From assembly GCA_905178155.1 (NCBI GenBank), contig CAJINV010000002.1:6118476-6182475 (forward strand): a stretch of 64,000 nt of DNA, in the 5' to 3' direction. The DNA is from Amoebophrya sp. A120. Its lineage: Eukaryota > Protista > Dinoflagellata. Each line of letters opens with the position of its first letter. Positions within the stretch are counted from its first letter, which is position 1. The translations under genes were made by a program, and so were the position numbers. The notes under the pieces were generated by a model. That model was not told where the DNA came from. It did not search any database and was given only the letters and a program-made list of their open reading frames with translations. Shown in pieces: positions 5,462 to 63,048 of this stretch.

Positions 5462-6496
5462 TCACAGCGGCCCACTCTGCAGCGCGCGAATGGGGTGCCG
5501 ACGGACGGATAGATTCCGGAGGTTCTTCCCCAGACCCTCGACCTGCTTGATTTTCCGGCCGGAGATGAACGACCAAGCGCGGCAGTACTGGTCTAGAAAG
5601 CGCGGAATGCTGAAGAACCGGTCCAGCGGCTCCATGCGATCGCCGTCTAGGCCTCGGAAATCCTGGTGCACCTCCGCGAAGGGCACGTTGCCCAGCACTT
5701 CGGCCTTTCCGATCACCAGGGTCGGGTTGGGATTGTCGTTCGTCGCTTTGGGGTTCCTCTCCAACACGGCAGTGGCAATCCAGGAAAACGGCTCCTCCGT
5801 CTTCATCCGGTGCAACTCCACCGCTTCCTTCTCGCGCGACCGGTTTTTCAGCTTCAGGTTCGCGACCGAGTTCGGGTTCGGGTCGATTTCCCCCAGCGTG
5901 GTGCTTGTAAGGAGCATCGGGTTGAACCGGCAGGCGAGAAAGTAGCGCCTACCGGGAAAATTCTCGTCGCGGTCCAAGTGGTCGAGCCAAAACAGCCCCA
6001 AATCCTTGCCCATGTCGACCATCCGCTTTTCGCGGAACCACCGTTTCACCGCGTACCGGTGCCGCCTCCGAATGATCCACATTAACTATCAAATGTAAAA
6101 ATGTCTGGGTTTCGAAGAAATCCAACTTGTCATGCTAAGTCTGGATCATGCAAAAATCTGTCTTGCGTGATCGCCAAAAGTCGCGCTCTTTTAACCAACA
6201 CGAGACGCACTTTCTCATGCAGGATAGGCATGATAAAGACCTCGCAAAATCTGTCATGCTAGGTCCTGCATTCCAGACCGCTTGGGGCATCGAAATTTTG
6301 CATGACAAGTTTCTATTCTTCCAGACCCAGACATTTTTGCAATCCATATCAACAAGCGCACCACGATTTTCAGCCGGCACGGTGTTCGAAAGGTGTCCTT
6401 TTTCTCGTGCACCGAGCTCCCGAGCGCAGAGGCGACAAATTTCGCGTCGTACCGCGTGAACTCGCGACGGGCGGTGTTGCTGTTGATCTTTGTGAG
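5462..6496 (-). CDS. Hypothetical protein interrupted by introner 6087-6348; 5' end unresolved
   Basis: Removing element plus one direct repeat gives ...RLKIVVRLL|MWIIRRRHRY...; frame open upstream to a TAA at 6497-6499. Confidence 0.5.
6087..6348. mobile_element. Introner family A
   Basis: TATCAAATGTAAAAATGTCTGGG...CCAGACCCAGACATTTTTGCAATCCATA; flanks TTAAC/TCAAC. Confidence 0.9.
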
Positions 6497-7218
6497 TTAC
6501 TCAAACACATTGTCCGACGCTTCATTCGGCTTTTTTTCCTCATGAGGATCTATGAATACGAATCACCATCAAGAAGCTAAGGTGACGCTCCGGCACCAGT
6601 GCTGCACCTTGCGGAAACATGAACAAACGAGCATGTAGTATACACAGCGTCGTCCGGGCCGTAACTCGCCGGTATTCTTGGCGTCATTCCCTTCCCCGGC
6701 TCGTAGCCACCAAATCCGCAACACATATCCGAATACTGCTTCCACAAGCTGCCGCCGGCCTTTTTGTTGTCTTCCAATGCGTCTTCGACTACTGGATTGC
6801 GGATGATATCGGCCGCAGCTTCCGCGCCCAGGTCCTTCTGCTGGTTGACTGCGCGGCCGACAGCAGCAGCGCCGACGTCCGTTTGGATGATAGGCTGGTT
6901 GACAGTAGAAGCTTAGTCAACGAACTGAGCAAATTTAGCAACGCAGAGAATTTGAAAAAAAATGACACGAGACAAAGAAGAAAACAGTCCAAATTGTACC
7001 TCGTCCTCGTCTTCCTCCGCCTCTGCGTTTGCGGCTTGACCTCCCTTGCCCGCTGCTTTTATGGAAGCAGAACTAACAGGAGTCACGGGCTTTGTCGTTG
7101 CGGGGAAAGATCAGATTCAGACCGTTTACTTGTTATGAGGCACGACCTTGTAACAAGCCAGCCCGATGGATTGCTCAGTGCAAAGTTGTAGCGTTGTAGT
7201 TTGGTCGTGCCCTTCAAT

Positions 7219-10200
7219 TTAATATTTTCTGCATTTTTTTTTTGCTCGCAACCTAGACATAGAGTGAACCTGAGAAATAAACGCATGAGGAAAATTCTGC
7301 AGCCAGATGACTCCTCTCGTCTCTGATCCCGTACCCTGGCTCTCACTAGATTCGTTCAGCAGCGTGAGCACATCCCAGTCGTGAATCGTCACGCTCATGA
7401 CCACCATCTGACTGTATAAAGTCCTTTGCAGGCGAAACAAGTTCTGCACCAGGATTTTCATCTTCGGCAGCCGCAGCTCGGCGTCGTCCGAGTGCTCCGC
7501 CCGTTCCACGATGGACACCGCGTGGTCGCACACCTCCTTCGCTTTCTCGTAGTTCCGCTCCACACTGGCGTAGTAGCAGGAAAAATTCAGGTGCGAGACC
7601 AGCAGTTCGTAAGAGATGTGTTGCGAGGAGATGGTGACCGGGTTGCTGTCCCGATTCATGCCCCCGCCGGCCGCTTCGCTATTGCTCAAACTCGACGTGA
7701 CCGAGAACTGGTGCTGGATGAAGATTTTCGCCAGGCGAATCGACTCCGTGTAGCAGTGCCGGGACAGAATGCTGTTTTGCTGGATTGTCCGCAAGGAGTG
7801 GTGCATCGCCATCACGCACATGTAGCGGTACCAATCGGCCTTCCAGCAGACCCACTTCGCGATCAGCTCCAAGTTTTCCAAAACGGTATTCCGCGTCATC
7901 TGTACCTCACAGGGGACCGGCGTTCTTGCCGACAAGTTTTCCAGCAGCATAAAACTCCCGGCCGCGATTGTGGGCTTGTCGTTCTTCTGCGAACCGCCCC
8001 CCGCGGCGGACGGGTTCATGACCTGCTTGAGCAACTCCGTCTTCGAGGCAATCGTCGTCCCCGCGGCTGATGCACCTGTTGTCCCGGTCGGGCCCCCAGC
8101 CGCGGGCCCTTGCGGACCTCCGTTCGCACCCCCACTGCCGGATCCGTGCGCGTTTTGCCGCAGTTCCCGGACGGTTATGTCTTGCATCATTTCCGTATGA
8201 CAGTGCACAACTCCCCCTCTCCCTCATTTGTCATGCAAAATCCCAAATCTCCCTTCTGCCTCCTGTTAGCACTCTTTGCATGACAGATTCCGAAAGCCAA
8301 AACAGCACTACATTTGCCCAGAAATTTCTCATGCAAAAGCTGCATCTTTGCCAGCGCTTGCGTTGCTGTTCATGCAACACAAATGAGGGGGAGGGGGAGT
8401 TGTGCAGTGTCATATTCCGCGGTGATTACCCCCGCAGCTTGCATGGTGGCGTTCTTCTGGTTTCCGGCCTGCTTCACAAAATCTCCCTTCTGGAACTGGT
8501 CCTCGTAAAAATTGGGTATGCGAGTGCACAACTCGGTCTATTCCTTGTTTGATGTCAAAGCGAAATTTCCACTCCAGCCCCCGGAAGCTGTGGATAGTAT
8601 TGCTGTTCTTCCTTGCTCCTAATACTCCTGTCGAAGATGCGATACAATTACAAATCACGAATAGAGGAAGTCACGTGCACTCTCATATTGAAGTTTTCCG
8701 TGACGAAGCACCGGCTGTCGAGGTGTTTCGTCAATAGCGCTAAATCCTCTCTCGTTTGGATCTCAATTGTGCAATCGCGGTAGGACAGACAGGGTAAGAC
8801 CACCGAGTCGATGAAGTCGGAGATTTGTAAGGACATTTGCTCCACTTTGTGGCCAAACTCCGTCCGGTCCAGGTGTCCCTTGTCGTACAATAAATACAAA
8901 TCGCGTAACCGCTGCTTGGCGCCAATCACGAATAACTCGCGGAGATCCGTTTCCAAACTGAAGAAAATTTTCTGCGTCATCGTGTCGTCCAGCCGAATGG
9001 AGCGAGACAGCAGGTCTGACGCGATTTTCAGACACCGCACCATCCGGCCGGGGCGGTCGCGAAGCAACGAGATGTTCGCGGACCGGAGGAAATCCTTCAC
9101 GTTTTCGTTTTCCGCCTTTTCCACGGTGATGAACGGCAACAGTTGATCGTTTTGGACCCCGGTGTGTGGGATATCTGGCGGCTTTTCCGCGTTGTCGATG
9201 TACGCGGTGGAGGTTTGGCCCTTCTTCCCCGCGTGCAACACCTGCAGGTCCTCGTTGTCCCGGTATTTCTGCAGCTCGTGATCCTTCAACAAATGGTAGT
9301 ACATCTCCCGGATCGCGAACACACCGGACAGGCCCGGCTGGTTTCGGCGGATGTATTTGATCTTGCCTCCGTCCGAAGAACTGTGCGCTCCTGAGCCCCC
9401 TTGTTTCGCCCGGATCCTCTCGTGCAGACGCCCGTACGTCCAATTCAAATCCAGCGCTTGCAACGCTCGGCGGCCCCGCTTCGCCTTGTTGGCTTCCCAC
9501 TCCGCAACGAAGTCGATCAAAGACTGGATTTTGTACTGCGGCCACTTCTTTCGCTTCATCTGGCGGTAAATCGCGTCCGGCGTCTGCTTGCCCTCCTGAA
9601 TTTGCTTCTTGAACGCCGACAGTTCGTCGACGACTTCCGATACCTCCCCCTCGATCGCCATGGCCCAGTAGAGGACCTTCACGCAGTCCTTTTGCTTCGG
9701 GAAATGGTAGAAGGCGGAATTCTGGATGGCGGACTGGGACTCGCCGAGGTTCCCCTTCGGCAGGATGTCTTCGAAGCCCCCGGTGGCGGCGCCGGGGGAA
9801 ACGTAGGAAATTTCCGCGAAGGGGCGGATCACCTTGAACTCGAGCTGCTTGTAGCCAAGCGAGAAGAGCCCGTTGAAGTAGTTGAGGAGCTCTGACTCCA
9901 GTTTGTCGAACCGTATCCGCTCGTTCAGCTTCAGCTCCAAACTTGCGGCTCCCGTGGCTGCGGTGTTCCGCACTTCCGGCGCGCGGAGATACAGTGTGCA
10001 GGTCTGGGGGGTCACGCAATAGTCCACCGGGAGCAGGGCCGGAATCTTGATGCAATCGTTGTTGTTCAGAATCCCGGGGTAGCTGTCCTGCACGCCGCCG
10101 TTTTTTGAGCGGAGCGCGGGCGGGAGCAATTGCTGCTCCCATTCCGGGTAGGAAATATCCGCTTCCACAATGTTCACGGCTTCGGAGGCGCCTTCATTTT

Positions 10201-10282
10201 CGTACAGGTTCCAGGATTGCCCGACGGGAACGCTGGCGGCCGCGGCGCCGGAGGTGACGGAGGACGAATTTCCGTTGCCCAT
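7219..10282 (-). CDS. ~887-aa protein with N-terminal MGNGNSS and a divergent C-terminal 14-3-3-like domain; 2 introner introns
   Basis: ORFs 8648-10372 and 7219-8208 join (TENFN|FYEDQ; ITAE|MMQD). Motifs DRPGRMV, VIGAKQR, KADWYRY, LNFSCYY, KILVQNL parallel 14-3-3 ERYDEMV, VIGARR, KGDYYRY, LNFSVFYY, LIMQLL; 3' end uncertain. Confidence 0.65.
8196..8414. mobile_element. Introner family G
   Basis: TATGACAGTGCACAACTCCCCCTC...GAGGGGGAGTTGTGCAGTGTCATA; perfect TTCCG repeat. Confidence 0.9.
8517..8687. mobile_element. Degenerate introner family G
   Basis: TATGCGAGTGCAC...GTGCACTCTCATA; flanks TTGGG/TTGAA; removal restores frame. Confidence 0.75.
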
Positions 10283-16004: not shown

Positions 16005-16088
16005 TTTTGTCTTCTAGCGCACCAGAGAACCTTTACCGAAGGAAAACTGAAGAATGCATCCAAAGCCAAGGCGTCTTCCTCTTTTCTT

Positions 16089-18369: not shown

Positions 18370-21300
18370 TCACAGCAGAATCTCATCTTCCTCCACCACC
18401 GTACCCACCATCATGTTCGCCGTTTTGCCAGCACTGCTACCAGCTTCAAAACCAAAAGCGCCGCCTGCCACTTTCCGACCGCCAGTACCATCTGATAGTT
18501 CTGCTGGATTTCCCGGCGTCCATCGACAACCTTTGAAACCCGTGGTCAAGAACTCGCGGTCGAGATTTCTCCCGATGAAAACCATTCGATTGACCTTTTC
18601 CAGTAGACCGGCTTTATCCTTCCGGTTCTCAAACACCAACTTCTCCGTTTGCAACTGCATGTGAATTCCGTGAAATGCGAAGACTGCAAAGTTACTGCTC
18701 TTGCCCTTGCTCCCAGTCGGTTTGTTCATCAGCGGCCGTTGTTTATCTCCTGCCCCTTCCACGTCCTTCACGCACACCACGCCCTTCATGCGGAAGATGT
18801 CGACCCCTTTCGTTTTCAGCAGTTCCTGGAACCAAACATTCAGCTTCTGCAAGTCGAACAGGAACGGTTGATCTGCCTCAGCTGTAAAATCTTTTCTCCC
18901 CGCTGCTACTGCGCTGGAAGTTGTTGATGTAGTTCCGCTTGATGATGTAGTCGACGCACAACTCGCAGATAGATCGATCCCCACGCTGAAGATCGACTCG
19001 TCGTGTTGGTGGTCGGCTCCGGCTTCCAGCAGAAATTCCGGGTCCATCTCCAGAATCCGGTCGAGTTGGAACGCTTTCTGGTTTAAATATGCATTGCAAA
19101 AATGTCTGGGTCTGGAAGGATGCAACTTATCATGCTAAGTCTGGATAGTACAAAAATTTGTTTTGCATGATTACCAAAAGGTGTCCACGTTTGAACAAGT
19201 TTAGCGGCAGTTTGTCATGCAGGACAGACATGATAGGGACGTCGCAGGACCTGTCATGCTAAGTCCTGCATTGCAGACCTCATGGGGCATGGAAAATATG
19301 CATGACAAGTTTGCATTCTTCCAGACCCTGATATTTTTACATTTGGTATTAAAACTTCTTTCGCGACGTCGAGATTCTCGAACCGCACTGTCTCCTTGAT
19401 GCTCGCGACGGAATTGATCTTCCGTATCCGCTGCTTGATGCTGCTTAGAATTTTCTTCGACTCCGCGTGCGGGTTGGGCGCGTTCAATTTCGTCAGCGCC
19501 TCTTCCACAACGAGGTCGCACTTGTTCAGCAGGATGCGGTCGGCAAAGGCAACCTAATAGAAAGTTTTTTTTTTTTTTGCTGCATTGGGAGGGTGATTGA
19601 TATCTGCAGTAGGTCGCATTTTCAAATTGATTCATCACAATTCACTAGCTGCCATCGAACAAAATAAATAATTGAGAGAATTCAAAGAACAAAATCACCG
19701 GGACGTCGAGCGATAGCGAACAACATCACAACAAATTTCTTTGGGCGCAATTTATGCTACATGCATTTCGTATGCAGGTGCAGCGGACGAGGATCCGCGA
19801 GCGGCTAGAGTGGGCGCATGATCACTGTCGCATTCGCAGCGCGGCGCGGGCTTTAATGGCTTCGCAGCGGCAGCTACGGCTTCTGCTGTCGCGGTTGGTG
19901 TGTGAGCGTGGGCCTGGGCAAATTCATTGGATAAAGAACTCCAGCGCGTGGATGAAATCTTTTGATTTTTTACTTTAATCACGAGCGCATTCTCGGCATT
20001 GGGCAGGAAAAGTGCAGTTTTGCGTGAGGGCTGCAAAAGGTTTGCGTCAGTTGCGTCAGAAAAAGTCCCAAAAACCATCTCAAACTCAATTGATTTTTGC
20101 TAACATCTACAAACAAAAGTATACCACACCATCGCTATTCAAAAACCTACTCATTTGATCAAATTCAAAATCATCAACATGAACATTGCGAATAACTACA
20201 GTATGTAGTACTACGGAAAAAAAAATATCAATATCCAAATGAAATTCTACCTGTTCATGACATTCGTTTTCCACCCCCGCCGGCTTCTCCTCGTCTAAGT
20301 GTTGCAAGAAATGTTTTGCATCAATGACCGTGACGATTCCGTCGAGTTTAAAATACCGCTGGATTTCGGCGTCAACGAAAAACGTTTGCGCGACCGGCGC
20401 CGGGTCCGCGAGACCGGTGGTTTCGATTATCACGTGGTCGATTTTGAACGTGTTGCTTGTTGATATCGAAACTTTATATGAATTGCAACAGTATCATATT
20501 TTCTTGTAAGAATAGAAATTCAAATTAGATCACAAACTTGCTCGGCATTAGAAATGGAATTTGCCATGCTGGTGCAGCACCAGCTTCTTGGGAAAAAGAT
20601 GTGTCACGCATGACTGTACTTTTTCCTCGACAATTACGATACTTTTGCAATGCATACTGTGGCCGGCGGGGTTGTGTGTCCTGTTGCATCCTCGTCCTCC
20701 GTCATTCTCGACCCCGTTCGATTCAACAGGTTTTTCAAGCCTTTTATCAAATCCCCCCGTACGGTGCAGCAAATGCAGCCGTTGTTCATTTCGATCAACA
20801 TTTCCTCCCCGAGGTCTTCTTTTTGGAATATTTATGCATTGCAAAAGTATCGCACTAGTATGAATCGCATGACAAATTTCCTCAGCATGGGAAATGAAGT
20901 TTGTAATGCGAATTTACCAGAAGAAAAAGATTTGTAATGCATGATGAATGCAATTACTACGAGTACGATACTTTTGCAATTCATAATATCAAGCTGTCGT
21001 CGATCCCCACTTCGCCGAATTCATTTTATCAAATGTAAAAATGCCTGGGTCTGGAAGAATGCAACTTGTCATGCTAAATCTGAATCAGGAAAAAAACTGT
21101 GTTGCATGATTGCCAAAAGTTGTGCATTTTTGACCTAATCGAGAGGCAGTTTCTCATGCAGGATAGGCATTGGAAAGGCTTCGCAGAATCTGTCACGCTA
21201 TGTCCTACATACCAGACCTCATGGGTTATGGAAAACCTGCATGACAAATCTGGCAATCTTCCAGACCCAGACATTTTTGCAATCCATACGTTTTCGATTA

Positions 21301-23199: not shown

Positions 23200-23972
23200 T
23201 GTATATTGATTTATGACATTTCGAGCGGACGAGGTACCCGAACCCGTCTTTTCCAGTTGCGCGCTAGAAACAAAAATTCGAATGGCACGAAGATCAATAG
23301 AAAAGAAATACAGCCGAATTACTTGTGCAAAATGACCATGAAACCCTAGGGGAACTTAATCGCTCGTCGAGGAACATCAACATCACAGGCGTGGGGCTCA
23401 TCGAATTCATTCTGGCTCATGCTACACTTAAAAATCACATCTGTAGCGCTATCTTCTGGCCAGACCCAGAGGCCGCCGCGCTCAACTCACTCTGCTCTCC
23501 GAGGATGGAAAATGAAAAAAAATGAATAAAGTCAGTATTTACGCATTTACCTCAAGCTCAAACAGACATTTTCATTTCTTCACATATGCTCCTCCTTATC
23601 GTTGCCTATACGACTTTCCGCCTCCTCTTCATTTCCTTTGCTACGACTCGCATGCCTGCGCTTCCTCTGTTTCCTATCTCTCTCAAATCAATGCTGTACA
23701 CAACCTAAAATACGAGGACGAAGAACAAGACAGAGTAATCGGTAGCGGAAATCTCACTTCACCCAGGAGCCAAAAGATGGAAATTTTCATTTGATGTAAG
23801 AAATTGTGTACAAAATTGCGACCCGAGCTGCAGAACTGAGCCAGATGCAGAGAGGATGACAGCCATCGTGTGCTCGTCCGCTGTCAAGGCGAGCGAGTTG
23901 TAAAAACTACTGCCCTACGTACGTACTTCTACTACGATCTACACTCCTGAGCACTAGTTTACTACTTTTGTT

Positions 23973-26900: not shown

Positions 26901-26998
26901 AGGTAAAAATCGACGAGAGGGCAGATCAAGAAAATCAGTATCAGGCGAATTGCGAGCCCGGAGAGAAGGCGCTCCGTGGTCGTTGAAGGGAGGACCAT
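23973..26998 (-). CDS. PIGM: GPI mannosyltransferase I (PIG-M/GPI14 family), ~714 aa; 3 introner introns
   Basis: YTDIDYFVFSDAA..GKSPY, YRYSPILA, LSTRGS, ATHMRIYP, RIDTKHNFSPYF, spliced NRV|CTAQYFLWW; multiple hydrophobic helices. Confidence 0.88.
24330..24573. mobile_element. Introner family A
   Basis: TIRs; perfect ACCCG repeat. Confidence 0.92.
24631..24952. mobile_element. Introner family C
   Basis: TATCAAAATGAAAAATCCCCCCTCCCCATA...TATGGCGAGGGGGGATTTTTCCTCTCAATA; perfect ACGTT repeat. Confidence 0.9.
26458..26757. mobile_element. Degenerate introner family A
   Basis: Decayed TIRs; flanks TACTT/GCCTT; frame restored between SPY and YRYSP motifs. Confidence 0.78.
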
Positions 26999-38742: not shown

Positions 38743-39711
38743 TTTGATGCTAGGAAGTGTTCTGGTCTTTCTTTCGTAAGAATAAAGAAAAGCAGAAAAA
38801 CGATCCAATGAGGATAGGGTGTAGGTAGTAAAAAATCTAAACCTAGTTTAGACAAAATTCAGCAACCTGAAGGCGGAAAGGGCCAAATTCTGTTCGCGTA
38901 GTCGATTTGACTCTGAGAGAAGCAGGCACAATACGCGGCAGAGGCCGGCAATAATATTGAGATCTTATCTTTGTGCCCGTGTGAGAAACGCGCAGGTCGA
39001 AAACCTTCCATTTGATGAACCAGCTGGGACCAAAACTTTGAATAAGGGAAAGACAAAAGGAGTTTTTAATTCTCATCCTCTTCATTTCATCATATGCATA
39101 ATCATGCATGATGTCACATCATGCCCGATCACTAGGGTAATGTTAAGCAGAGATCTTCATCCTTTCATCATGTTCATCTTGATGCTGATCTGCTCAGCCG
39201 ATATAGTGATCTCGGAAGAACAGAAAGGCAGAGAGTGTCCGAAAGACGGCTTCGTTCTTTCCAGCACTGAGTTGTACTTTTCTATATGAAGATGGATATC
39301 AGAAAGTCTCTGTGTCGTTCGCTTGTCTTGTCATGTTTTTTTATGAATGTCGATGTCATGATGTTGTTGTACTTCATTTGCATGTCGTCAAAAAGAATCC
39401 TCCACAACTTCCCCATCTCGAATAACAGTCGTCCCTCTCCCCAGTACTAACCCAATCCCGAGTGATGATTTTCGTCGCCATCGGTAGGTGGAATGCTTAC
39501 GCTTACCACAACCTAAGCACACTTTTACGCTTTTCGTCGCCGCTTTGCAGTGGAGCCTGATTTTAGTACAAATTTAGTTCAGCCCCGGTCAAATAAGCAT
39601 TTCTCCTTGTAAGAACAAAAAAAACGCATGAATTTCAAAATAAACAAAACAGCCAAATCCAAATCTACAACCCGATAAAAGACACTCAACGCCATTAATT
39701 CATGTTTTTTT

Positions 39712-45700: not shown

Positions 45701-48700
45701 TTTGGTGATCGAGCCTGAAGAGTTCCAAATTTTCCTCCTCCAAGAGCCACTTCACAGCCGCCACGCACTTCTTCCTGGATTTCAGGTTCCGACTGCTGTT
45801 GTAAAAATTCTCCATCTTCCGGCTGTCGACACAAAGATAGTAATTCAGCTCCCGCACCACCATGTGCAGCAAAGTTCCGCCCTTCATGCCCGGAACGGAG
45901 CCGACCAGCGGCGGCGCGCCGATGGACAGATTCTTCAGGTTGTCAAACAGTTTCACCGGCCGTTCCAAGTTGGTGGAGCTTGGCAGAGCAGTTTTCAACG
46001 ATAGCAGCCCGTCCTTCAGCTCCGTCAGGAACGAGTTGTCGTCGTAATTGAATTTTTTCTTTTTTTCTGGTCTTTTGTTCAACATCACTGGGCGGAGCTC
46101 CAGTTCCCCGTTGCTGGGATGCTGTTGGTGATGATCCGGTCCAGCGATCATAGAGTTGTTATCCTGGTGCCCTTTTGGTTGTGATTCGACAGAGCAGGAC
46201 CTTTTCCGATTATGATTCGCCGGTAGTTGTTTCTTTCTCCTTTTCGCCCCTCCTCCAGACGTGTTCCGGGAGGAGCAAACCGACGCCTTCGCGTTCTTGT
46301 TGTGCGAGCCGCTTTTCAATAATGTAGAACTAGAAGAACCTCCAGCCGCTTCTATATCGATGTCCATTGGCGTCGACGTGTGGTCGACCAGTAAAATGCT
46401 TTTGTCCATCATCCAGTCAGCCTCGGTTGTTTGCTGCTCCGGCGAACTGCTCTTACTGCATTTTGTGCTGCTGTTGTAAAAGTTTTCGACGTTACCAACA
46501 TCTCTTCTAGAAGTTTTTGTCGTCGTGGTCATGAATCTCCTCCCTTCCGAATAGTAGTCAAGAATTTTTTTCCGTGCCGTGTCCCAAATCTGCGGCAACT
46601 CGTGCTCCAGCAGGGCGTGCAGGTCGGAGACGTAGCACTTCCCGATCGTTTTCTCGTTTTGGTCCAGAGTCGCGAGAAAATCGTTGCACTTCCCTTCCTT
46701 CTATGCATTGCAAAAGTATCGCACTAGTAGAAATTGCATCACAAATTTTTTCAAGAAGAAATAAAATGAAATTTGTAAATGCTATTTCACCTAAAAGGGG
46801 ATATTTGTCATGCACGATAGCAATTACTTACTACGAGTACGATACTTTTGCACAGGATACCTTCTTCGCCGGCGGGTGCCGGTTCTGCGCCAGAGTCCAG
46901 ACCGCGTTGGATAGGACCAACTTCACGATGTATGCATTGCAAATATGTCTGGGGCTGGAAGATTGCCAGGCTTGTCATGCATATTTTGCATGACCCATGA
47001 TGTCTGTGATGCATGCTCTAGCATCACAGATTTTTGGAGGGCTTTGCGATGCCTCTACCGCATGAGAAATGTCCCCTCCGCGTAGGCCAAACTGGAGTTC
47101 TCTTGCTGCTCATGCAATACAGATTTTTTTAGAATCCAGAGACAGCATCACAAGTTTAGAATCTTCCAGACCTAGACATATTTGCATTTCATACGATGCC
47201 CTCCAACCCGATTTCACCCGTGATCCCGAAGTCTCGGGGGATGAAAAAATTCCCGGAACCCAGGTTGATCAAGGACCGCAACGCGGAAAAAACCGGCGTC
47301 GCGCCGTCGGGAGCGCGGTAGTTGATGTTCATTTCCTTCAGCAGGGCGGAGATTTTCGCCAGATGGGCCTTCTTATCAAATGTAAAAATGTCTGGGTCTG
47401 GAAGAATGCACGTTTGTCATGCTTGTTTCGCATGACTCCTAAATCTGTCATGCACAGTACCCAAGAGACCCATTTTTCTGTCATGCAGAAACGCAGTATG
47501 TCATGCAGAATAGGCAACACCTAGAAGCTCAGAAACTTGTCATGCTGAGCCAGCATTTGTAGCCTCATCATGAGACGCCACCCAGCATCACAAGTTTCCA
47601 GACCCAGACACTTTTACATTTGATACTTCTGCGGGTAAAACCGCTCGTCGTCGTGGAGTGGAAGGTAGTGCTATGCAAGAAAAAAACTGTGTAAGTGTAA
47701 ATTTGTGTTGCAGAACATGCAACAGAGTTACGCCTGTCATGCCAGACAGCCGTGAAGTCCTCTTTTCACGTGTGTTTTCCCTTACAAGCCACGCATGACA
47801 GGTTTTCTCTGTCATGTAGAGCAAATTTGTGATGCTGTTTCTCAAAGAAAGTTACACTTACACACTTTTTTTCCTGGATAAGTGCTTGTTTTGCTGCACA
47901 AGAACTCCTAGTTGCTTTGCCGCCGCAGTTGTAGATGAGTTTATTTCGCCCCCACCAGGTGCTGCTGGTGCAAGAACCCCTCCTACAACTCTTGAAGTAG
48001 AAGTAGCCGTCACATGATTCCGAGGGCTTACCTGATTCGTCGTCACCCAGGCGTTGGCTGCGACCATGGCTTTGTCGTTCGTGTTGCAAGGAAAAATCCC
48101 CCCTCCCCATATTGAAAACGCATCCGTCAGAAAATTCGTCATGCAGATTTGTGACCACAAATCGGGTCTGCCTTGCAAGGAGGCCCAGTCAGGCTGTCCG
48201 CCAAGTTATGCAGGCGATTTGTAATGCTGTAAGGCCTACAGGGTAGCCGTCTACCATGCTAGGCGCATACACCAAAAGGCCCCCACCTAGGCTCAGGATC
48301 TGCGTGCATTCCTCTACTGCAACACAAATTTGATTTGTGTATCCAATTCCAGCATCAGAAGTTTCGTTTTGATATGGGGAGGGGGGATTTTTCCTTTTGA
48401 TAGTTCGGTCTCCAGCACTTGAACAACAGCTCCGGCTCGAAGCGCTGGACCCCGTGGAACAGCGTCCAGTGCAGGACCGGGAAGTGCATCGTGTGGCCGA
48501 ACTGCACCATCGCGATATGCATTGCAAATATGTCTGGGTCTGGAAGGTTGCAACTTGTGACGCTGTCCTTGGATTCCAAAAAAATCTGTGTTGCATGACT
48601 AGCAAGAGGAGCCCAGTTTCTTCTACACGGAGAGGGCATTTCTCATGCGGATTACGCATAAGGAAGCCCCCTAAAAATCTGCGATGCTAGGCCATGCCTC

Positions 48701-51700
48701 ACAGGCGTCACATGTCCTACAAAATATGCATGACAAACCTGGCACTCTTCCAGACCCAGACATTTTTGCACTTGATAGGCGAAGCTGGTATACAAATCTT
48801 GCGTCGGAAACGCCTTCAGCAGCCACTTCAAATGGTACCATTTACACACGTATGGATTGCAAAAATGTCTGGGTCTGGAAACTTGTAATGCTAAAAGTGA
48901 ATGGGAGACGCACTGCAATACGCAGCTATGCATGACAAACTTTTTGGCTCCCATGTCTTACGTATTCCGCATGGCAAGCTGCGTTTTTGCATGACAGGTA
49001 AGAGGGCCTCTTCGTGCCTATGCAACACAGATTCTCGAGTCATGCCAGACAAGCATGACAAACTTGCATTCTTCCAGACCCAGACATAATTTTTGCATTT
49101 GATAACACGTGAAACGCGGGCAGGCACACCGTCGCAATCTGCTGGTTGAACGCCTTTTTCCAGGTCGTCATCACCTGTTTGTAGTCGCTCACGGTGCACT
49201 TCTCCTTCTGCTCACAAGAAGTTGTTGTACTGTTCAACATCCCGGATGACGAGCTCTTGTTGTTCCCGGCGCTCGTCGTCCCTGTGGTTTGGAAATGCCC
49301 AAGCGCGGTCTGTTCCTCGATCACTTGGTCCACGTTGCTCGCGAAAAACATCACCCGGGTCGGCTCCACCTGGAAGGTCACCGGATTCACGTATCAAGTG
49401 CAAATATGTCTGGGTCTGGAAATTTGTGATGCAAGAAAGATTATAGTGAGCACACTGCAATGCGCAGCCCAGCATGACAAGTTTTTCCGTGGTTCTGCGT
49501 TGCGTACTCCGTATGAGAAACTGCATTTTTGCATGACAGGCAACAGGAGCTCTTCGTGGCCACGCAATACAGATTTCAGAGTCATACCAGATCAGCATGG
49601 CAAATCTCGGAATCTTCCAGACCCAGACATATTTGCATTCCATATCACGGTCTGCCACGCAAAATTCTCCGCGTGATTCTGCGCCGTCGCGTTCGCAGAC
49701 CGGGTCCGCTTCAAAGGTGGTGTCAAAGGTAAAAATGTCTGGGTCTGGAAACTTGTGATGCTGGGTGGCGTCTCATGATGAGGCTACAAATGCTGGCTCA
49801 GCATGACAAGTTTCTGAGCTCCTAGGGCTAGGTGTTGCCTATTCTGCATGACAAACACAATCACAAACTGCGTTCCTGCATGACAGAAAAATGGAGCGCT
49901 TGTGTAACGTGCATGACAGATTTAAGAGTCATGCCAGACAAGCATGAAAAACATGAATTCTTCCAGACCCAGACATTTTTACACTTGATAGGTGGCTGGG
50001 ATAGTTTATTCGAGGTCCCGGCAGCCCCATAATTTGCAATCAAGGCCTGATTTGATGATGCAGCTCCAGCTGTTGTTCCCGCCGCTTCAAGTAGCCCATA
50101 ATTCGGGTACAGCGGATTCGACGCCGCCAAGTACCGCACCTTGCACAGATCCGGCGCTTTCACGAGCAACAGCTTGTATCGGTCGACCGAGAGAGATTGC
50201 CCGTTAGAGATGTGAGCGGAGAAAATCGTTTTTAGGTTCCCCGGCGAATCCGTCACATCGAACAACCGCAACAGCATCCGGTTCAAGAAAGCGATCAAGT
50301 GCAAGCAACTTTTGCTGTAGTCCTCCTTCCGAAAAAACTTGCACGCAAACAGAGGCACCAGCCGCTGCGCCTCCGGCAGGACATAGTCGGAAATGTTGGT
50401 CTCGGGGTACTTAAACTTCGAGGGGAAAATCCCCGATCTCGTGCTCGGCAAGCCGCAGAGACAAGTCGCCCGGTCGGTGGGGAGCTGGGACGGGTTGTCG
50501 TAAGTGTTGTTGTAGCGGTAACAGTGCTTCCTGCGGCGCTTCCGCGCCTGTTGTAGCTGGGTTCTCCGCTGCTCCTCCAATTGCTCTTCGGTAAGTAGCT
50601 GGTCATCTCCGGCGGTGATCTTGAAATCTTCAACGCTTTTGTAGTTGCTTTTCGTATTTCTATCACCTGCCTGCCCTGATGAACACGACGACGTGGACCG
50701 CCCCATTGCATTCATCGGCGGAGAGCTCTCCGGGGCGGAAGCAGGAGATGAAGCAGCACTAGAAGAATTTTCCTTCCTCACAGTGCTCCTGTGCCCACAC
50801 TCGTTTTCGTCCAGAAAAAGCTGCGTCACCTCCTGCCACAGCTTTTTTCCGAACTCCGAGTCTGGGCAGTACTCGTTCGGCAAGTAATAATCTTTCGATC
50901 TGTAGTCCGCAACTTCGTCTTTACTCATCATGTGAAAGAGTTTGAAGTTCTCCCCGCTCTGCGTGGGTGGCATTTCGTGCTGGAGCAAAATCGTGAACAG
51001 TAGCCGCTTCTGATCCACTCCGAACCTTCCATCGGACACGACTGTGGTGCTCTTCGGGAGCTGGCTGTTGGTAGTTGCGGAAGCGGAGCTGCCGCTACTG
51101 AGCTCCATCTGGTCGGCGAAGGATGAAGAAGATGTATTTGCAATCATTTTCACTGCGTCAGCACCCGCACCAGCATTGTTCATCATTTTTGCGTTTTTCC
51201 TGTTCACTTCCTTGTTGTGCTTCGCCAGGAGCAGCTTCGCGACGTTTTGCAGATTGTTATTGCAGTAAATGGTTTCGTGCGCCACCTTCAAATCATGCTC
51301 GATCATCGGTTTCAAGAGAAGGAGAAACGCCTGCTCGCGAATTTTCTTCCGCTTTTCCAGTGCATTCTCGTCCGAGAGAGTTTCGTTCTCGTCGGTGCCG
51401 TCCGGGTTCCGGAATTCCCCGAAAAAATGAAGCAGCTGGTAGAAATCCGGCCACCTGTTGTCGTGGGGTTTTTGTGTTCTTGTAGTCGATCATTTACAAG
51501 GGAGTTGCCGCAGCATCAGGCTTCTAAGTATGTAATCTACTGACGCCCGCAGCTCTTGTCTCTCATCCGCACAGACATGAAGAACGAGAGTGCACATCAA
51601 TCACATGAAGTAAAAAAGTACTTACGCCAACAAGGTGCGAGGACCACGGTTCACTGTCAATATGTCAAACCCACATGTTGAGAGAACAACAAGCAGGCCA

Positions 51701-53308
51701 TATAGATACCTCAAGCTTTCCTGCCTCCCGGCGAAATCCAGCGCCTTTTGCCCGTGCGTCATCGCCAGGAGAAAGTACGACACCGTGTTCGTGCTGTCGT
51801 AAAGCAGATTTTTCCCCGTCAGTTTTTTGTGCTCCACCGCTTTCTCCAGCAAAAACGGGGCGAGTTCAAACCCGTAGTCGTAGTTCAGGAAGCCGTAGTG
51901 CATCGGGTTGCGGTCGAACTGCACGCCCCGGTGCGTCGCCAAGAACTTCGTGTCGTAACTATTATGGAAGCGCCAGGTTTGAAATCGCCAAAGTTGAAAT
52001 AGTTTGTGATGCATAAAATGCACTTGCAGAAGTGCCTGTCTTGCCGGCATGGCAAGTGAGGCAGATTGTGAGCCTATTTGGGGTTTGGGATACAGCTGCT
52101 AAAGGGGCATGACAAAAGCAGTCTTCTGTGCCCAAACAGCATGACAAATTGGATTCCGGTGCTCCGAAAATTTGTCATGCGCCGCTTAGAAATTGGTCTT
52201 CCAACTGGTATCCATTTTATGCATGACAAATTATTTCAACTTTGTCGATCTCAAACCGGACGCTTCCATAACTATCGAATCGAGCATCAAATTTCTCCAC
52301 GCACAGCCTCACCATCGGTAAATTTCCATAGTGGCAGATGTAGAAGAAAAGCCCCTGACCCCGGTGGTCCGGCTGGTTTAGGTCGATCTCGTAGTTTTCC
52401 AACACGAATTCCAGTAACTCCGTGGCATACTCGCTATTCACGAAAACCCTGCGCTTCAAGTCCTTTTTCGTGTTCCTCGTAAGCCACCACCGGAGCTCCG
52501 ATTCGGGCTTGCTCATCTCGCACAACTTTTTCAAACACGCTTTCTGCTCTTCCAGAAGCGACTTATTTGAATTACTTAATGTTCCGACGATGGAATTTGA
52601 TCTCGACCTTTTCCGTTTGTTGTTCGCCACGGTCACTGTCGTTCCTGTTGGTGCAGCTTGTTTCTTCATGGTCTTTATTGGCAAGTTTGTGTTCTCTAAG
52701 TCCTCTAGCAAACTGAAGTTGTAACTGTCCTCGTTGTGGCTTAGTAGCTTCTCGAAACTCCTGCGCTCCACCTCTTGCTCACAACCGCCGCGGTTCATGG
52801 CGCTGCTGGAAGATGATGAACTAGCTCCTTGCAGCTGCTGCGCGATGCTAGTAGAGAGGTTCTTGTTATAATCCTGAAGATGTTGAGGCATCATCAAACC
52901 AGACGCGGAAGCTGCTTCTGTCTGCTGATTTGCAGCACTTTTGGACGTCCTCGAAACAGTGCCTGATACTAGCCAGGACTTCGACGCTGTGTGGTTCAAG
53001 TTCACGGTCTCCTTGCTGTGTGTCGTGGAGGATATTAAAGCTCCCCCAGTCGTGCTGCCCGCCGTGGGGATAATATCATTATCCTCCTCCTCTTCTTCAT
53101 CGTTGTTGCTGTTCATGAGGCTGACAAGGTCGCTGTCCTTGTCCTTCCCAAGGATCCCATCGTTTCTTGCTTGTTCACCGGAGTTGTGGTCTAGGACCTT
53201 CATAGCCTTGTTGTCCTTCTTCTTCCCAGCTTTTGTATCTTTTCCGACTTTCCGCGAGGGTGCGGAGCCCGCTTTTTTGCCACGAGAGGCCGAAAACTTG
53301 TTCTCCAT
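39712..53308 (-). CDS. Giant (~3536 aa) protein with dispersed ankyrin-like repeats and long acidic disordered C terminus; 11 introner introns plus GT-AG intron 51455-51625
   Basis: All junctions in frame (net 10611 nt); ankyrin-like segments DLNQPDHRGQGLFFYICHYGNLPMVRLCVE, INYRAPDGATPVFSAL, DHQTGRSCFFHAVEKDAVEVMQYL, YTPILHAIEENNDAAVQWLLQHGA; last exon uncertain. Confidence 0.75.
41996..42050 (-). repeat. 15-bp coding tandem repeat (EQEPS x~4)
   Basis: GG(T/C)TCCTG(T/C)TCAGAA units. Confidence 0.8.
45052..45261. mobile_element. Introner family E
   Basis: TATCCCACGAAAAAACTGTTTCACTGTGA...TCACAGTGAAACAGTTTTTTCTTGCGATA; perfect CCCAC repeat. Confidence 0.9.
46702..46859. mobile_element. Introner family B
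   Basis: TIRs; perfect CCTTC repeat. Confidence 0.92.
46931..47193. mobile_element. Introner family A
   Basis: TIRs; perfect CGATG repeat. Confidence 0.92.
47374..47625. mobile_element. Introner family A
   Basis: TIRs; perfect CTTCT repeat; inverted homolog of 49721-49990. Confidence 0.92.
47672..47880. mobile_element. Introner family E
   Basis: TATGCAAGAAAAAAACTGTGTAAGTGTAA...TTACACTTACACACTTTTTTTCCTGGATA; perfect AGTGC repeat. Confidence 0.9.
48082..48402. mobile_element. Introner family C
   Basis: GGAAAAATCCCCCCTCCCCATA TIR; perfect GTTCG repeat. Confidence 0.9.
48516..48777. mobile_element. Introner family A
   Basis: TIRs; flanks CGCGA/GGCGA. Confidence 0.9.
48851..49104. mobile_element. 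Introner family A
   Basis: TIRs; perfect ACACG repeat. Confidence 0.92.
49392..49644. mobile_element. Introner family A
   Basis: TIRs; perfect TCACG repeat. Confidence 0.92.
49721..49990. mobile_element. Introner family A
   Basis: TIRs (left end TGTCAAAGG); perfect GGTGG repeat. Confidence 0.9.
51963..52270. mobile_element. Introner family D
   Basis: TIRs; perfect ACTAT repeat; junction RFDS|YDTK. Confidence 0.92.
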
Positions 53309-60546: not shown

Positions 60547-61472
60547 GACGGAAAACGTGGACCTTGTCTCAGCGTGAGAGAAGAGGTGGCGGTAAAACAG
60601 ACGCAAAAGGGAAAGGGTTGATGTGTTACTTTAAACAAAAACACCAGCCTAACAGTAGTCAAATCGGCTTGTAGAATGAAAAAATGTAAATAAAGTCCTC
60701 GGGACAATTCAATACAGAAATTCAGCGGGTAAGCTGTTCAGGTTGACGACCCAGCACCTGTACAAAACGGAAGCTGATTTATACATGCAAAATCAATTTG
60801 AGTCCACGAACTTGAAGCAACTTGACGATCACACTTCGTCTGACAACATGATCAGATAGCCTCGACTGGCCGACAACGCCACAAGCCCTGATGTACGACG
60901 CTGGTAACGATGAAGTAAAGAACGATTCCTTTCCGACACTGCGGGAACGACCCTGAAGATGACAAGTACGAATACGTCAGCTGTAGTAAATTATTTCAGA
61001 TCAGCAGATTCAGATAGGTCAACGGACGATGATAACGATTGTCGCGAAGATCATGTCTGTGCACGACTCACCACGGATGAGCATACTTGTGCTTGAACGA
61101 TGAAAGCTGAGAAGCAACGTTGTCCCCAACGGATAGCGAAGACCTCTGCCACACAGAAAACAAAAAGGGTCCGCCTTTGTCACGATAGTGAGCAAGAAGA
61201 GGACCCGGTCGGGAACGAACATTTTTCTTGACCGAAATAAAATTGGTTTGCTGTTGCAGAGCATCGGCGATTGAATGTGGTGAACAGCAGTGGTGCACGA
61301 GCGCAAATCAATACCAAGGCAGAACCTGCTTGCACGAACGGCATTCGGGTCAATATCCCACATCTTCCGAAGGCAATTCCAGGCTCAGAGCTGAGCTGCG
61401 AAATAGACATAAACGCGAATGGGTTTTAGCCGCACTTCAAGGCATCAGGTTTTCAATAGGTCTATAGTCTTT

Positions 61473-63048
61473 CTAGAGTTTCAGCCGCAATTTGTTATGA
61501 ACAGACCTATCGCTAGTGTAGAAGCACCCGACATGCAGGGTGAACGGGAGCGCATCCCCTTCGGAATAAACACAACGCTCGCCGCGAAGCGCGAGTGTGA
61601 AACCTTTCACCTTCTCTGCACGGTGCAAACAATACATCAAGCAGTGCGGTGATCCTAGTCCTGGATGCAAGGCCCGTGCCGCTTCGGGTGTCAACGGATA
61701 TGCTTCACCGTTTGGTAGCGTCGGGGCGTTCTGCATCACTTCAGAGGTAACTTCGAGCTTTGGAATGCCATTCGTCGCACACTCATCCAAGAGCCGCCGA
61801 GCGAGATAGTTGACAATTTCGGCCTCGGTGCGTTCCAGGGTTTCTAGAAAAGCTGTCCAAATCGAACCATTCGGCGAACCATCACTACTCGTGATGCTGG
61901 AGTTGGTTGGCCGCGCGTTTCGTGCTAGGTCTGCAATATCGCTACTGGGCAGGCGCTCATGGCTCTCGTCTTCGACTTCGCCTAAGCTGACAAACAGTGG
62001 CGCAGCAAGTGGCGCATCCTCTTCTTCGTCGATCCTTCTTTCAAGCTCACGATCATGGTACACGTAGAAGCTTCTCCGTAGAAGCATCGTGACAACAACA
62101 TCCAGACGCGGCCGGTCCCCGTTTCTCAAGGCCGGCTATCAAATGTAAAAATGTCTGGGTCTGGAAGAATACAGACTTGTGATGCGCATTTCAGGACACA
62201 GAAAAATTTCTCATGCATAGGTAGCGAAAGCTGCTCAGTTTCCGCCACCAAAATGGGGGATTTGTCATGCGGATTCGGCATTGCGAAAGTTTCTCGAAAA
62301 CTGCGATGCTAGAGCTCCCATACCAGACTTTCTGTGTCATGCCAAAACAGCATGACTCTTCCAGACCCAGACATTTTTGCATTTGATACCGGCGCACCAT
62401 CGGCGATTTCGTCGGTGATCGCAAATCTGGTTGCGACCCCCTTCGCGGCCGTTTCGAGTATTTTCTTCATGTAGTACTCGAAAACAAGGCCGTAATCCAC
62501 GCCGATCTGGGACCTCGCTATCTTGATGGAATGGAAGTAGTCCGCATTTCGGCAATCCAAAATTTGGATGTTCTCCTGGCCCAAGAAATGCATGACTTTC
62601 TTCCGAAGAACCTCAGGCAAGGAGCGTCGCTGGTTCGTCAGATTCCGCGTCGCCAGAACACACCAAATGTTGACCTGGTATAATTGAAGACGCTGTTCGC
62701 AAAGAACATCTGTCGAGTTTGCAAAGCAATGGGAATTCAAATCTCCAAGTAAGATGCAACAGAGTCACTTGGAAAGAAGAGAAAGATAAACTACTGATTC
62801 GGAAAAAAAATATCTAGGACCTGACTCGCCAGCATTTTGTTGGCCGTTCGCTTGTCGAGATTCTGCAAGCGCCCTTCGAGCGATTCCCGGTCCAGGTCGG
62901 CAATTTTCTGGACCCACTTTTCGTAGCTCCCTTTGTACCGGAGAAGAACGTTTTCAGCGGTGATTTTTGTTGGCTGGTTCGCCAGCTGCGGCTCCGCAGG
63001 TCCGTTTCCGGCAGGGACGGCTGCGGATGAAGAGGAGGCGGACGACAT
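61473..63048 (-). CDS. ~390-aa hypothetical protein; GT-AG intron 62675-62820 and one introner intron
   Basis: MLASQ|VNIWC and DGAP|ALRNG junctions in frame; LPEVLRKKVMHFL weakly F-box/SOCS-box-like. Confidence 0.6.
62137..62388. mobile_element. Introner family A
   Basis: TIRs; perfect CCGGC repeat. Confidence 0.92.

What the first reader, a model, noticed from the sequence alone, without database searches (positions are those of the whole stretch)
6087..62388. 38 MITE-like TIR elements act as non-canonical introns excised with one copy of a 5-bp direct repeat
Seen: 38 elements in ~7 TIR families, TAT...ATA termini (a few decayed), 5-bp flanking direct repeats of arbitrary sequence. Removing element plus one repeat restores the ORF every time, including through conserved motifs (CobW EN|EFG, PIG-M NRV|CTAQY, cyclophilin LCE|TGFY). 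Many repeats (TTCCG, CCGGC, GATTT) offer no frame-preserving GT..AG, while ordinary GT-AG introns coexist in the same genes. Established: introner elements with inverted and direct repeats and non-canonical boundaries are reported from Amoebophrya; to my knowledge the excision mechanism is unresolved. Inference: a second, structure- or TIR-guided removal pathway operates alongside normal splicing.
Basis: partly seen in the sequence, partly recalled or inferred. Interest (0 to 1): 0.9.

Follow-up and report, generated by a model that had tools for sequence, protein, structure and literature searches.

The report
Transposon introns with hidden cut rule
These 38 small transposon copies belong to a known class of odd introns in the marine parasite Amoebophrya: at all 12 junctions that RNA showed, each is removed with exactly five flanking bases, and the cut likely falls at a fixed place next to the transposon ends, which would mean splicing without the near-universal GT and AG signals.

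Summary
The 38 elements are Amoebophrya A120-type introner elements (Farhat 2021, which already reports TAT-starting inverted repeats, 5-bp direct repeats and RNA support). The spliced PIG-M gene equals an annotated A120 protein. RNA contigs skip element + 5 nt at 12 of 12 junctions shown; DNA contigs keep the elements. Only 1 of 38 can be read as GT-AG.

What this follow-up adds: seven junctions with imperfect repeats fit one register only, intron = N-TAT...ATA-NNNN. In 238 oriented copies from a related genome, terminal decay follows the direction of transcription (permutation p=0.002): +2 T, +3 A and an A seven bases before the 3' cut are kept, whereas +1 G and the final AG are not enriched. 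N-TAT resembles the window's ordinary 5' sites (GTATCA, GTATTA). So removal is TIR-guided, but a separate second pathway is not shown; a relaxed spliceosome (about 0.55) leads a euglenid-like hairpin endonuclease-ligase (about 0.3). Lariat or circle sequencing would decide. No transposase was found. The scan noted similar introns earlier in three other genomes.

The parts
6087..6348 (-). element 1, main TIR family; repeat has 1 mismatch (position 4)
8196..8414 (-). element 2; perfect repeat
   Evidence: ortholog colinear
8517..8687 (-). element 3, decayed; repeat mismatched at positions 1-2; ortholog keeps Phe, so cut after position 2 or later
19088..19348 (-). element 4 (CobW); 5' end TAC
   Evidence: ortholog colinear
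20477..20656 (-). element 5 (CobW); 2 repeat mismatches
20833..20985 (-). element 6 (CobW); 1 mismatch
21027..21288 (-). element 7 (CobW, inside the EN|EFG motif); 1 mismatch
22247..22414 (-). element 8 (CobW), decayed; 1 mismatch
22665..22834 (-). element 9 (CobW)
22893..23180 (-). element 10 (CobW); 3' end AGA; 1 mismatch
24330..24573 (-). element 11 (PIG-M); site reads through in relative P0002
24631..24952 (-). element 12 (PIG-M); site reads through in relative P0002
26458..26757 (-). element 13 (PIG-M), decayed; mismatches at 4-5; annotated protein needs cut after position 4 or 5
27720..27864 (-). element 14
27886..28143 (-). element 15
28193..28451 (-). element 16
30419..30582 (-). element 17; 5' end TAC; mismatch at 2; RNA skips 169 nt and keeps the upstream copy's base
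30660..30925 (-). element 18, decayed; 3' end ATG; 3 mismatches; RNA skips 271 nt and keeps upstream positions 1-4
30980..31241 (-). element 19; RNA skips 267 nt
31286..31564 (-). element 20; RNA skips 284 nt
31628..31888 (-). element 21; mismatch at 5; RNA skips 266 nt and keeps the downstream copy's base
32399..32666 (-). element 22; RNA skips 273 nt
32733..33043 (-). element 23; RNA skips 316 nt
33105..33325 (-). element 24; RNA skips 226 nt
37738..37887 (-). element 25 (cyclophilin); mismatch at 1; RNA skips 155 nt in 4 of 4 runs
38480..38633 (-). element 26 (cyclophilin); RNA skips 159 nt
   Evidence: Pfam positions 33|35
45052..45261 (-). element 27; RNA skips 215 nt
46702..46859 (-). 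element 28; the only one that reads GT-AG (at the inferred register)
46931..47193 (-). element 29
47374..47625 (-). element 30
47672..47880 (-). element 31
48082..48402 (-). element 32; 3' end ACA
48516..48777 (-). element 33; mismatch at 5; RNA skips 267 nt and keeps the downstream copy's base
48851..49104 (-). element 34
49392..49644 (-). element 35
49721..49990 (-). element 36; 3' end ACA
51963..52270 (-). element 37
62137..62388 (-). element 38
19554..20250 (-). predicted ordinary GT-AG intron in CobW (starts GTAGAA)
   Evidence: frame and ortholog colinearity; no RNA cover
36152..36390 (-). ordinary GT-AG intron (starts GTATCA)
   Evidence: RNA joint
38033..38319 (-). ordinary GT-AG intron in cyclophilin (starts GTATTA), between elements 26 and 25
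   Evidence: RNA joint
39557..39734 (-). ordinary GT-AG intron (starts GTAAAT) in the long gene that holds elements 27-36
   Evidence: RNA joint
7342..10282 (-). host gene part (847 codons) with elements 2-3; ortholog P0009 carries a precomputed PF00244 hit
18370..23355 (-). CobW-family host gene, elements 4-10; 923 codons without a stop after splicing
23973..26998 (-). PIG-M mannosyltransferase host gene, elements 11-13; spliced product identical to P0001 (714 aa)
28887..33844 (-). host frame of 961 codons, elements 17-24; no Pfam match in the two exons scanned
37578..38745 (-). cyclophilin host gene, elements 25-26 and one GT-AG intron
39712..51489 (-). host frame of 3091 codons, elements 27-36

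Best explanation
These are short non-coding terminal-inverted-repeat transposon copies that duplicated 5 bp on insertion into genes and are removed from the RNA together with exactly 5 flanking bases, likely at a fixed register (1 base before TAT, 4 bases after ATA) and likely by a relaxed spliceosome that the folded ends guide. Shown: TIRs, 5-bp duplication, retention in DNA, removal of element + 5 nt in RNA (12 junctions), removal in both element orientations, no need for G at +1 or AG at the end. Inferred (about 0.75): the register is fixed, intron = last base of the upstream repeat + element + first four bases of the downstream repeat, so the message keeps four bases of the upstream copy and one of the downstream copy and the gene is restored without a scar. 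Inferred (about 0.6): the TIR's TAT supplies positions +2 to +4 of a 5' splice site, the hairpin holds the two ends together in place of U1 and AG-based recognition, the first A of the final ATA (7 bases before the cut) would be the branch nucleotide, and the 3' cut would be measured from it. Mobility by a cut-and-paste transposase encoded elsewhere is inferred; none was seen.
For: Removal: 12 of 12 element joints shown skip length + 5 nt, in contigs that also skip GT-AG introns; DNA run X1 has contigs with 0 differences running through elements 5, 8-10, 13, 17, 18 and 24. Duplication length: of 273 related copies found by inner TIR only, 213 have an exact 5-nt repeat, 2 a 4-nt and 0 a 6-nt repeat. 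Register k (bases kept from the upstream copy): RNA gives #25 k>=1, #17 k>=2, #18 k>=4, #21 k<=4, #33 k<=4 (with 33); the annotated protein P0001 needs k>=4 at #13 although k=3 would offer GC-AG; the A25 ortholog keeps Phe at #3, which needs k>=2. Only k=4 fits all seven. Polarity: pattern seen in the window (6 odd termini, p=0.015), then tested on 238 oriented copies of a related genome: 5' ends TAT 232, TAC 5, TTT 1; 3' ends ATA 228, ATG 5, ATC 2, GTA 1, ACA 1, AAA 1; permutation p=0.0019. Wobble pairing does not explain TIR positions 2 and 3. The three RNA-supported ordinary introns start GTATCA, GTATTA, GTAAAT; the commonest element end gives N-TATCA. Both orientations occur (77:65 in the main family) and both are spliced (#22 against #19, #21, #33). 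34 of 38 fold at z below -2. Literature: U1 snRNA not found in A120 or A25; A25 repeats start TTA plus two purines (PMC7789003); U2 spliceosome removes TIR-derived non-canonical introns in Fritillaria (10.1101/2025.08.15.670264); Polarella class 12 uses this same register with a 5-nt NNAGG duplication (10.1101/2020.10.14.339549).
Against: G at +1 (7 of 38; 76 of 238) and AG at the end (5 of 38; 20 of 238 against 7.3% background) are not enriched, although a standard spliceosome needs them (recalled). No polarity beyond the three terminal bases: smallest Bowker p 0.04-0.05 over TIR positions 4-28, so no branch-site or +5 consensus is selected. The TAT and the candidate branch A are predicted to be paired in most elements. 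The lower bound k>=4 rests on two decayed elements (#13, #18); #18 happens to end in CAG and #13 is annotation, not reads. Contigs drop rare variants, so minor registers cannot be seen; 11 of 12 joints carry the tool's flag 'between: not known'. Annotated A120 families show GT starts of about 27-28% and AG ends of about 24-30% (fam12, fam16), which looks like a mix of k=4 and the mirror register k=1; I read this as motif-seeking alignment, but a real mixture is not excluded. Polarity rests on 22 odd termini and on strand calls from a coding model trained on this window. Euglena has a similar fixed-spacer geometry with unknown machinery (PMC12501133).
Confidence: 0.55

Rival explanations
1. A separate, non-spliceosomal endonuclease-ligase recognises the TIR hairpin and cuts at fixed distances from it (1 base on the 5' side, 4 on the 3' side), as is proposed for euglenid nonconventional introns; this is the first reader's second pathway.
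For: Strong predicted hairpins (median z -6); no G at +1, no AG, no branch consensus; Euglena signature N3CDG...CH'GN5-6|R also has fixed, unequal spacers (abstract of PMC12501133); Farhat concluded that the mechanism should be distinct.
Against: The polar conserved bases are +2 T and +3 A, the positions that the window's ordinary introns share; no purine preference at the next exon's first base (147 of 238); decayed elements with weak hairpins are still spliced precisely (#17 z -0.9); Fritillaria shows that a spliceosome can adapt.
Confidence: 0.3
2. Removal works by microhomology between the two repeat copies (template switch or recombination-like join), with the crossover anywhere in the repeat.
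For: Four of five RNA-informative junctions (#17, #21, #25, #33) also fit a crossover in the longest identical run; all 9 single mismatches in the window are synonymous, as if both copies were used.
Against: #18 is joined precisely with one shared base at the join; #13 would give Ser, the annotated protein has Arg; the synonymous excess was not reproduced in the related genome (transitions 17 of 25, transversions 6 of 21, expected 0.54 and 0.29); it does not explain polar termini.
Confidence: 0.07
3. The joints are reverse-transcriptase artefacts (skipping of hairpins at short repeats) and the elements stay in real mRNA.
For: Hairpin plus short direct repeat is the known setting for such artefacts (recalled); only cDNA-derived contigs were available; one abundant transcript elsewhere retains part of an element.
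Against: 21 of 38 elements are not a multiple of 3 long and they interrupt Pfam domains; orthologs are colinear across the joins; one 4,175-nt contig skips eight in a row.
Confidence: 0.03
4. The elements are cut out of DNA during development, like ciliate internal eliminated sequences.
For: TA-containing ends with short direct repeats recall such sequences (recalled).
Against: DNA contigs of run X1 keep the elements at the same depth (about 43) as their flanks; conservation follows the direction of transcription. The DNA joint table was swamped by repeats (15 of 1,560 rows shown), so a rare excised DNA form is not excluded.
Confidence: 0.02

Closest known systems
Introner elements among the non-canonical introns of Amoebophrya A120 (Farhat et al. 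2021, PMC7789003; read: abstract, passages, sections 12, 16, 32, 36, supplement legends and Table S4; figures not visible)
   Same: Inverted repeats starting TAT, then about 7 variable bases and an A run; direct repeats (5 bp in Fig. S19 legend); about 240 nt; hairpin; RNA support; mixed genes; the window's PIG-M product equals an annotated A120 protein.
   Different: That paper calls the splice position relative to the hairpin variable or unknown and sees no clear end signature. Here a single register and transcription-polar conservation of +2 T, +3 A and -7 A are inferred.
A120 introner families in Gozashti et al. 2025 (PMC12130899; read: passages and 22 of 58 A120 rows of the supplementary family table)
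   Same: TIR DNA transposon origin, many families, tens of introns per gene, many non-canonical ends.
   Different: Superfamily left unknown in the rows seen and automated duplication lengths vary from 2 to 5; here 5 bp is sharp (213 of 273). Their family 38 has integrase-like ORFs; whether it shares these TIRs was not tested.
Polarella glacialis introner-like class 12 (10.1101/2020.10.14.339549; passages read)
   Same: 5-nt duplication; one of its registers starts the intron at the last duplicated base plus the element's first base and ends it at duplicated bases 3-4.
   Different: It needs NNAGG or NAGGH targets (G start, AG end); here the target is free.
Fritillaria borealis non-canonical introns (10.1101/2025.08.15.670264, passages; review PMC11282704, passages; Henriet 2019 itself not read)
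   Same: MITE-derived, TIR and target duplication, removed cleanly; U2 spliceosome needed.
   Different: Its ends are mostly AG-AC and AG-AT; here first and last two bases appear free except T at +2.
Euglenid nonconventional introns (PMC12501133, abstract and introduction; PMC11282704, passages)
   Same: Paired ends, fixed unequal spacers to the cuts, coexistence with GT-AG introns.
   Different: CAG/CTG motif, spacers 3 and 5-6, purine at the next exon start; here TAT/ATA, spacers 1 and 4, no purine preference.

Membership tests
Amoebophrya A120 introner elements | Inverted repeat starting TAT, about 7 variable bases, then an A run | tested here: met
   T 38/38, A 38/38, T 36/38 at positions 1-3; A 29-34/38 at positions 11-14
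Amoebophrya A120 introner elements | 3-5 nt direct repeat at the borders | tested here: met
   25 of 38 perfect 5-nt repeats; 213 of 273 in related loci
Amoebophrya A120 introner elements | Removed from RNA without GT-AG ends | tested here: met
   12 of 12 joints shown, none GT-AG in any register
Amoebophrya A120 introner elements | Repeated across the genome | tested here: met
   Summed DNA contig depth up to about 260,000 on elements against about 45 on flanks; 29 of 38 cluster with related copies
Amoebophrya A120 introner elements | Host is strain A120 or indistinguishable at the gene tested | tested here: met
   Spliced PIG-M identical to P0001, named Amoebophrya sp. A120 by its source; one gene only
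MITE (non-autonomous TIR DNA transposon) | TIRs, short, non-coding, fixed-length target duplication | tested here: met
MITE (non-autonomous TIR DNA transposon) | Empty site with one copy of the target in a relative | tested here: inconclusive
   P0002 (91% identical) reads through sites 11 and 12 and begins in element-derived sequence at a site empty here; protein level only, DNA not seen
MITE (non-autonomous TIR DNA transposon) | Autonomous partner with the same TIRs and a transposase | tested here: inconclusive
   6 of 8 copies over 400 nt examined; longest stop-free frame 149 codons; no genome held; only 485 kb of related DNA seen
Canonical U2 spliceosomal intron | GT (or GC) at the 5' end | tested here: not met
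   G at +1 in 7 of 38 and 76 of 238 at the inferred register
Canonical U2 spliceosomal intron | AG at the 3' end | tested here: not met
   5 of 38; 20 of 238 against 7.3% background
Canonical U2 spliceosomal intron | T at +2 and A at +3 kept in the direction of transcription | tested here: met
   0 and 1 deviations in 276 oriented copies, against 8 and 5 at the mirror positions; depends on the inferred register
Canonical U2 spliceosomal intron | Lariat through a branch adenosine; snRNP dependence | not testable with these tools
   Only contigs were available; candidate A at -7 deviates in 1 of 276
Euglenid nonconventional intron | Paired ends with fixed spacers to the cuts | tested here: met
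   spacers 1 and 4 inferred
Euglenid nonconventional intron | CAG/CTG motif and purine at the next exon start | tested here: not met
   Ends are TAT/ATA; purine in 147 of 238, near background
Euglenid nonconventional intron | Released as circular RNA without branch | not testable with these tools
   No raw reads covered the genes
Ciliate internal eliminated sequence | Absent from the working DNA | tested here: not met
   DNA contigs run through 8 elements with 0 differences

The most novel reading that the evidence does not exclude
The Amoebophrya A120 spliceosome has dropped both terminal rules: it splices tens of thousands of introns of the form N-UAU...A-UA-NNNN, reading only +2 U, +3 A and a branch A seven bases from the end, with the transposon's own hairpin replacing U1 and AG recognition. 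Any insertion of these transposons, at any site and in either orientation, then becomes a scarless intron.
Probability: 0.45. Interest if true: 0.85.

Novelty: already known. Interest (0 to 1): 0.5.

Why it matters
The elements themselves are published. The open question since 2021 is how they are removed. A fixed register turns an apparent chaos of 64 end pairs into one rule (N-T...NN), which would correct intron annotation in this genome and names the exact bases to test: the branch candidate at -7 and the free +1 base. If a spliceosome does it, the G at +1 and the final AG, thought essential for the second step, are dispensable in a natural system, which bears on how transposons become introns. 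If it does not, a second nuclear splicing machine exists outside euglenids. Either outcome follows from one sequencing experiment.

Tried and rejected
No whole genome is held, so genome-wide counts and a transposase search were not possible. Raw RNA runs X9 and X10 did not cover the genes in 18950-38900 (116 and 3 reads, on element sequence only), and X3 covered little there beyond cyclophilin; this is no evidence on expression, and elements 1-16, 37 and 38 have no RNA joint. In one search the joint table showed 15 of 20 rows, so elements 28-32 and 34-36 are neither shown nor excluded. Table S4 of Farhat (9 of 9 top A120 end pairs have T at +2) first looked like support for the register; I dropped it because 8 of 9 also have A at -2 and the family counts match motif-seeking placement between k=4 and k=1. 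The synonymous excess of repeat mismatches (9 of 9 singles in the window) was not reproduced. G excess and T deficit at repeat position 4 (z +2.3, -2.7) and A deficit at position 1 (z -3.1) are among 60 tests with a flank position at +3.2, so not used. First strand-calling model was too weak (69 of 252) and was replaced (238 of 278); 28 of 306 copies with more than 2 repeat mismatches and 40 with uncertain strand were left out of the polarity count. The TIR pattern had 0 matches in viral contigs. No Rfam match in the window. The A120 versions of CobW and of the gene with elements 2-3 were not returned; only A25 orthologs were. An off-by-one in the CobW ordinary intron broke the frame and was corrected. 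Paper searches found no report of the register, of lariats or of circles for these introns; subscription journals are not covered, and the figures of Farhat (Fig. 3, S19-S23) and two unsearched supplementary files of Gozashti could bear on this.


Full report
1. The observation. The strict scan finds 21 against 0-1 in each of 30 simulated sequences. 32 of 38 have both termini intact. The 5-nt repeats are perfect in 25, with one mismatch in 9, two in 3 and three in 1. Inner TIRs fall into 7 groups at the loosest threshold. 34 of 38 fold much better than shuffles (median z -6; 20 shuffles each).

2. [quoted passage not shown] All lie in minus-strand frames. Removing element + 5 nt opens frames of 3091, 961, 926, 728 and 665 codons across 10, 8, 2, 3 and 6 elements; the frame alone fixes the extra length only modulo 3. 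Exons match Pfam cyclophilin, CobW and PIG-M at consecutive profile positions. The spliced PIG-M gene is identical to P0001, which its source names Amoebophrya sp. A120. A25 orthologs are colinear across elements 2, 3, 4, 6, 7, 8 and 9. Contigs of four runs guessed to be RNA (two samples, one study) skip element + 5 nt at 12 of 12 element joints shown (17-27 and 33), and skip three GT-AG introns, which shows that they are spliced RNA (15 of 20 joints shown). One contig skips eight elements in a row; its listed pieces leave exactly the 117 bases of the two small exons between elements 24 and 22. DNA run X1 keeps the elements, with summed depth on them thousands of times that of the flanks. Nearby frame-preserving GT..AG pairs exist for five of the RNA-covered elements and are not used.

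3. The 5-bp repeat is a target duplication. Copies were detected by TIR positions 9-28 only, so termini and repeats were not conditioned on: of 273, 213 have an exact 5-nt repeat, 2 a 4-nt and none a 6-nt one. Protein P0002 from a relative reads through sites 11 and 12 and begins with a translation of an element end (14 of 15 residues match element 25) at a site that is empty here, which suggests presence/absence differences between close relatives. No long copy held a convincing ORF.

4. Where the cut falls. With a perfect repeat the join can slide over six registers. Let k be the number of bases kept from the upstream copy. Imperfect repeats give: #25 k>=1, #17 k>=2, #18 k>=4, #21 k<=4, #33 k<=4 from RNA contigs; #13 k>=4 from the annotated protein, although k=3 would offer GC-AG; #3 k>=2 from the ortholog's conserved Phe. 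One value, k=4, fits all seven: intron = N-TAT...ATA-NNNN. Limits: the bound k>=4 rests on two decayed copies, contigs hide minor forms, and four of the five RNA cases also fit a crossover in the longest shared run. Published end tables cannot settle it: they look like motif-seeking placement between k=4 and its mirror k=1.

5. What is read. Elements sit in both orientations (77:65 in the main family) and both are spliced, so the signals lie in the TIRs. Yet the ends decay unequally. In the window the six odd termini all spared +2 T, +3 A and the A at -7. I then tested this on 238 of 278 related copies whose strand a coding model could call from flanks alone (38 of 38 right on the window, where it was trained): 16 odd termini, permutation p=0.0019. 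Pooled, TIR position 1 deviates 0 times at the 5' end and 8 at the 3' end, position 2 deviates 1 and 5 times, position 3 deviates 7 and 1 times. A DNA-level or symmetric hairpin constraint does not predict this; G-U wobble fits position 1 only; a strand mutation bias would have to run in opposite directions at neighbouring bases. Positions 4-28 show no clear polarity. G at +1 and AG at the end are at background.

6. Mechanism. The kept bases are those of a 5' splice site without its G: the RNA-supported ordinary introns here start GTATCA, GTATTA and GTAAAT, and the commonest element start is N-TATCA. The A at -7 would be a branch point from which the 3' cut is measured (inference; short fixed branch-to-end distances are known in some protists, recalled). 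U1 was not found in A120 or A25, and A25 repeats start TTA plus two purines (PMC7789003). Fritillaria removes TIR-derived introns with its U2 spliceosome, and Polarella class 12 uses the same register with NNAGG targets. I put the relaxed spliceosome at about 0.55-0.6. Against it: complete freedom at +1, -2 and -1 has no precedent that I found, there is no branch consensus, and the signals would be paired in the stem. A euglenid-like endonuclease-ligase with fixed spacers is the main rival at about 0.3. Microhomology joining, reverse-transcriptase artefact and DNA elimination are unlikely (sections above).

7. Comparison and novelty. The elements meet every tested feature of the A120 introner elements of Farhat et al. 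2021, including the 5-bp repeat (supplement legend). They work like MITEs turned into introns; they fail the membership test for canonical U2 introns (no GT, no AG) and for euglenid introns (no CAG/CTG). So the finding as given is already known. The fixed register and the polar conservation were not found in print in six searches, with the caveat that figures and subscription journals were not visible. Three earlier notes of this scan describe similar introns in other genomes; none covered this genome, and I did not check them.

8. Verdict. Observation confirmed; interpretation partly supported; novelty already known; interest 0.5, because the register and the -7 A make a question open since 2021 testable by one lariat-sequencing experiment.

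Noticed in passing
window 39735-45047, 54779-59473, 12210-16013 against 45052-49990 and 30419-33325: Elements are clumped: three exons or ORFs of 3.8-5.3 kb have none, while 10 sit in 5 kb and 8 in 3 kb nearby. Not explained.
   Followed up: no
related loci L001-L144: At the inferred register phase 0 is in excess: 104, 53, 71 of 228; 18, 10, 10 of 38 in the window, although no splice-site bases are recruited from the target.
   Followed up: partly
P0002: A relative (91% identical PIG-M) seems to carry an element at a site empty in the window and to lack elements 11 and 12.
   Followed up: partly
window 30980-31058 (reads of X9, contig of X3): An abundant transcript from another locus retains at least 79 nt of a main-family element with its own flanks (116 reads in X9): an unspliced or exonised copy.
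   Followed up: no
window 30660-30925: The most decayed element (18) ends in CAG exactly at the inferred 3' cut; it may be turning into an ordinary acceptor. Other imperfect repeats show no general gain of AG.
   Followed up: partly
window 48082-48402 and 49721-49990: Two elements have a TGT/ACA end; TGT termini are recalled for Ginger transposons, and Gozashti 2025 describe an integrase-like TIR family in A120. A possible lead to the transposase.
   Followed up: no
L040:3862-4492, L064:5024-5995, L077:5772-6919: Long copies (631-1148 nt) with intact TIRs and 5-nt repeats carry unrelated internal DNA without a long ORF.
   Followed up: partly
window about 4000-5000, 10600-11950, 16750-17900: GC-rich stretches (0.6-0.68) between genes, not similar to each other; a 94-nt imperfect palindrome at 11754-11847; no Pfam or Rfam match.
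   Followed up: partly
window 27414-34337: By its length, the 4,175-nt contig of X6 would run past the 961-codon gene through the next gene with elements 14-16 also removed; arithmetic only, that part was outside the laid stretch.
   Followed up: no
whole window: All long ORFs and all RNA-supported introns are on the minus strand, in line with the one-way gene clusters described for Amoebophrya.
   Followed up: no
window 16092-16697 and 54782-59473: Weak Pfam hits below the curated cut-offs: Cmc1-like and Rootletin-like.
   Followed up: no
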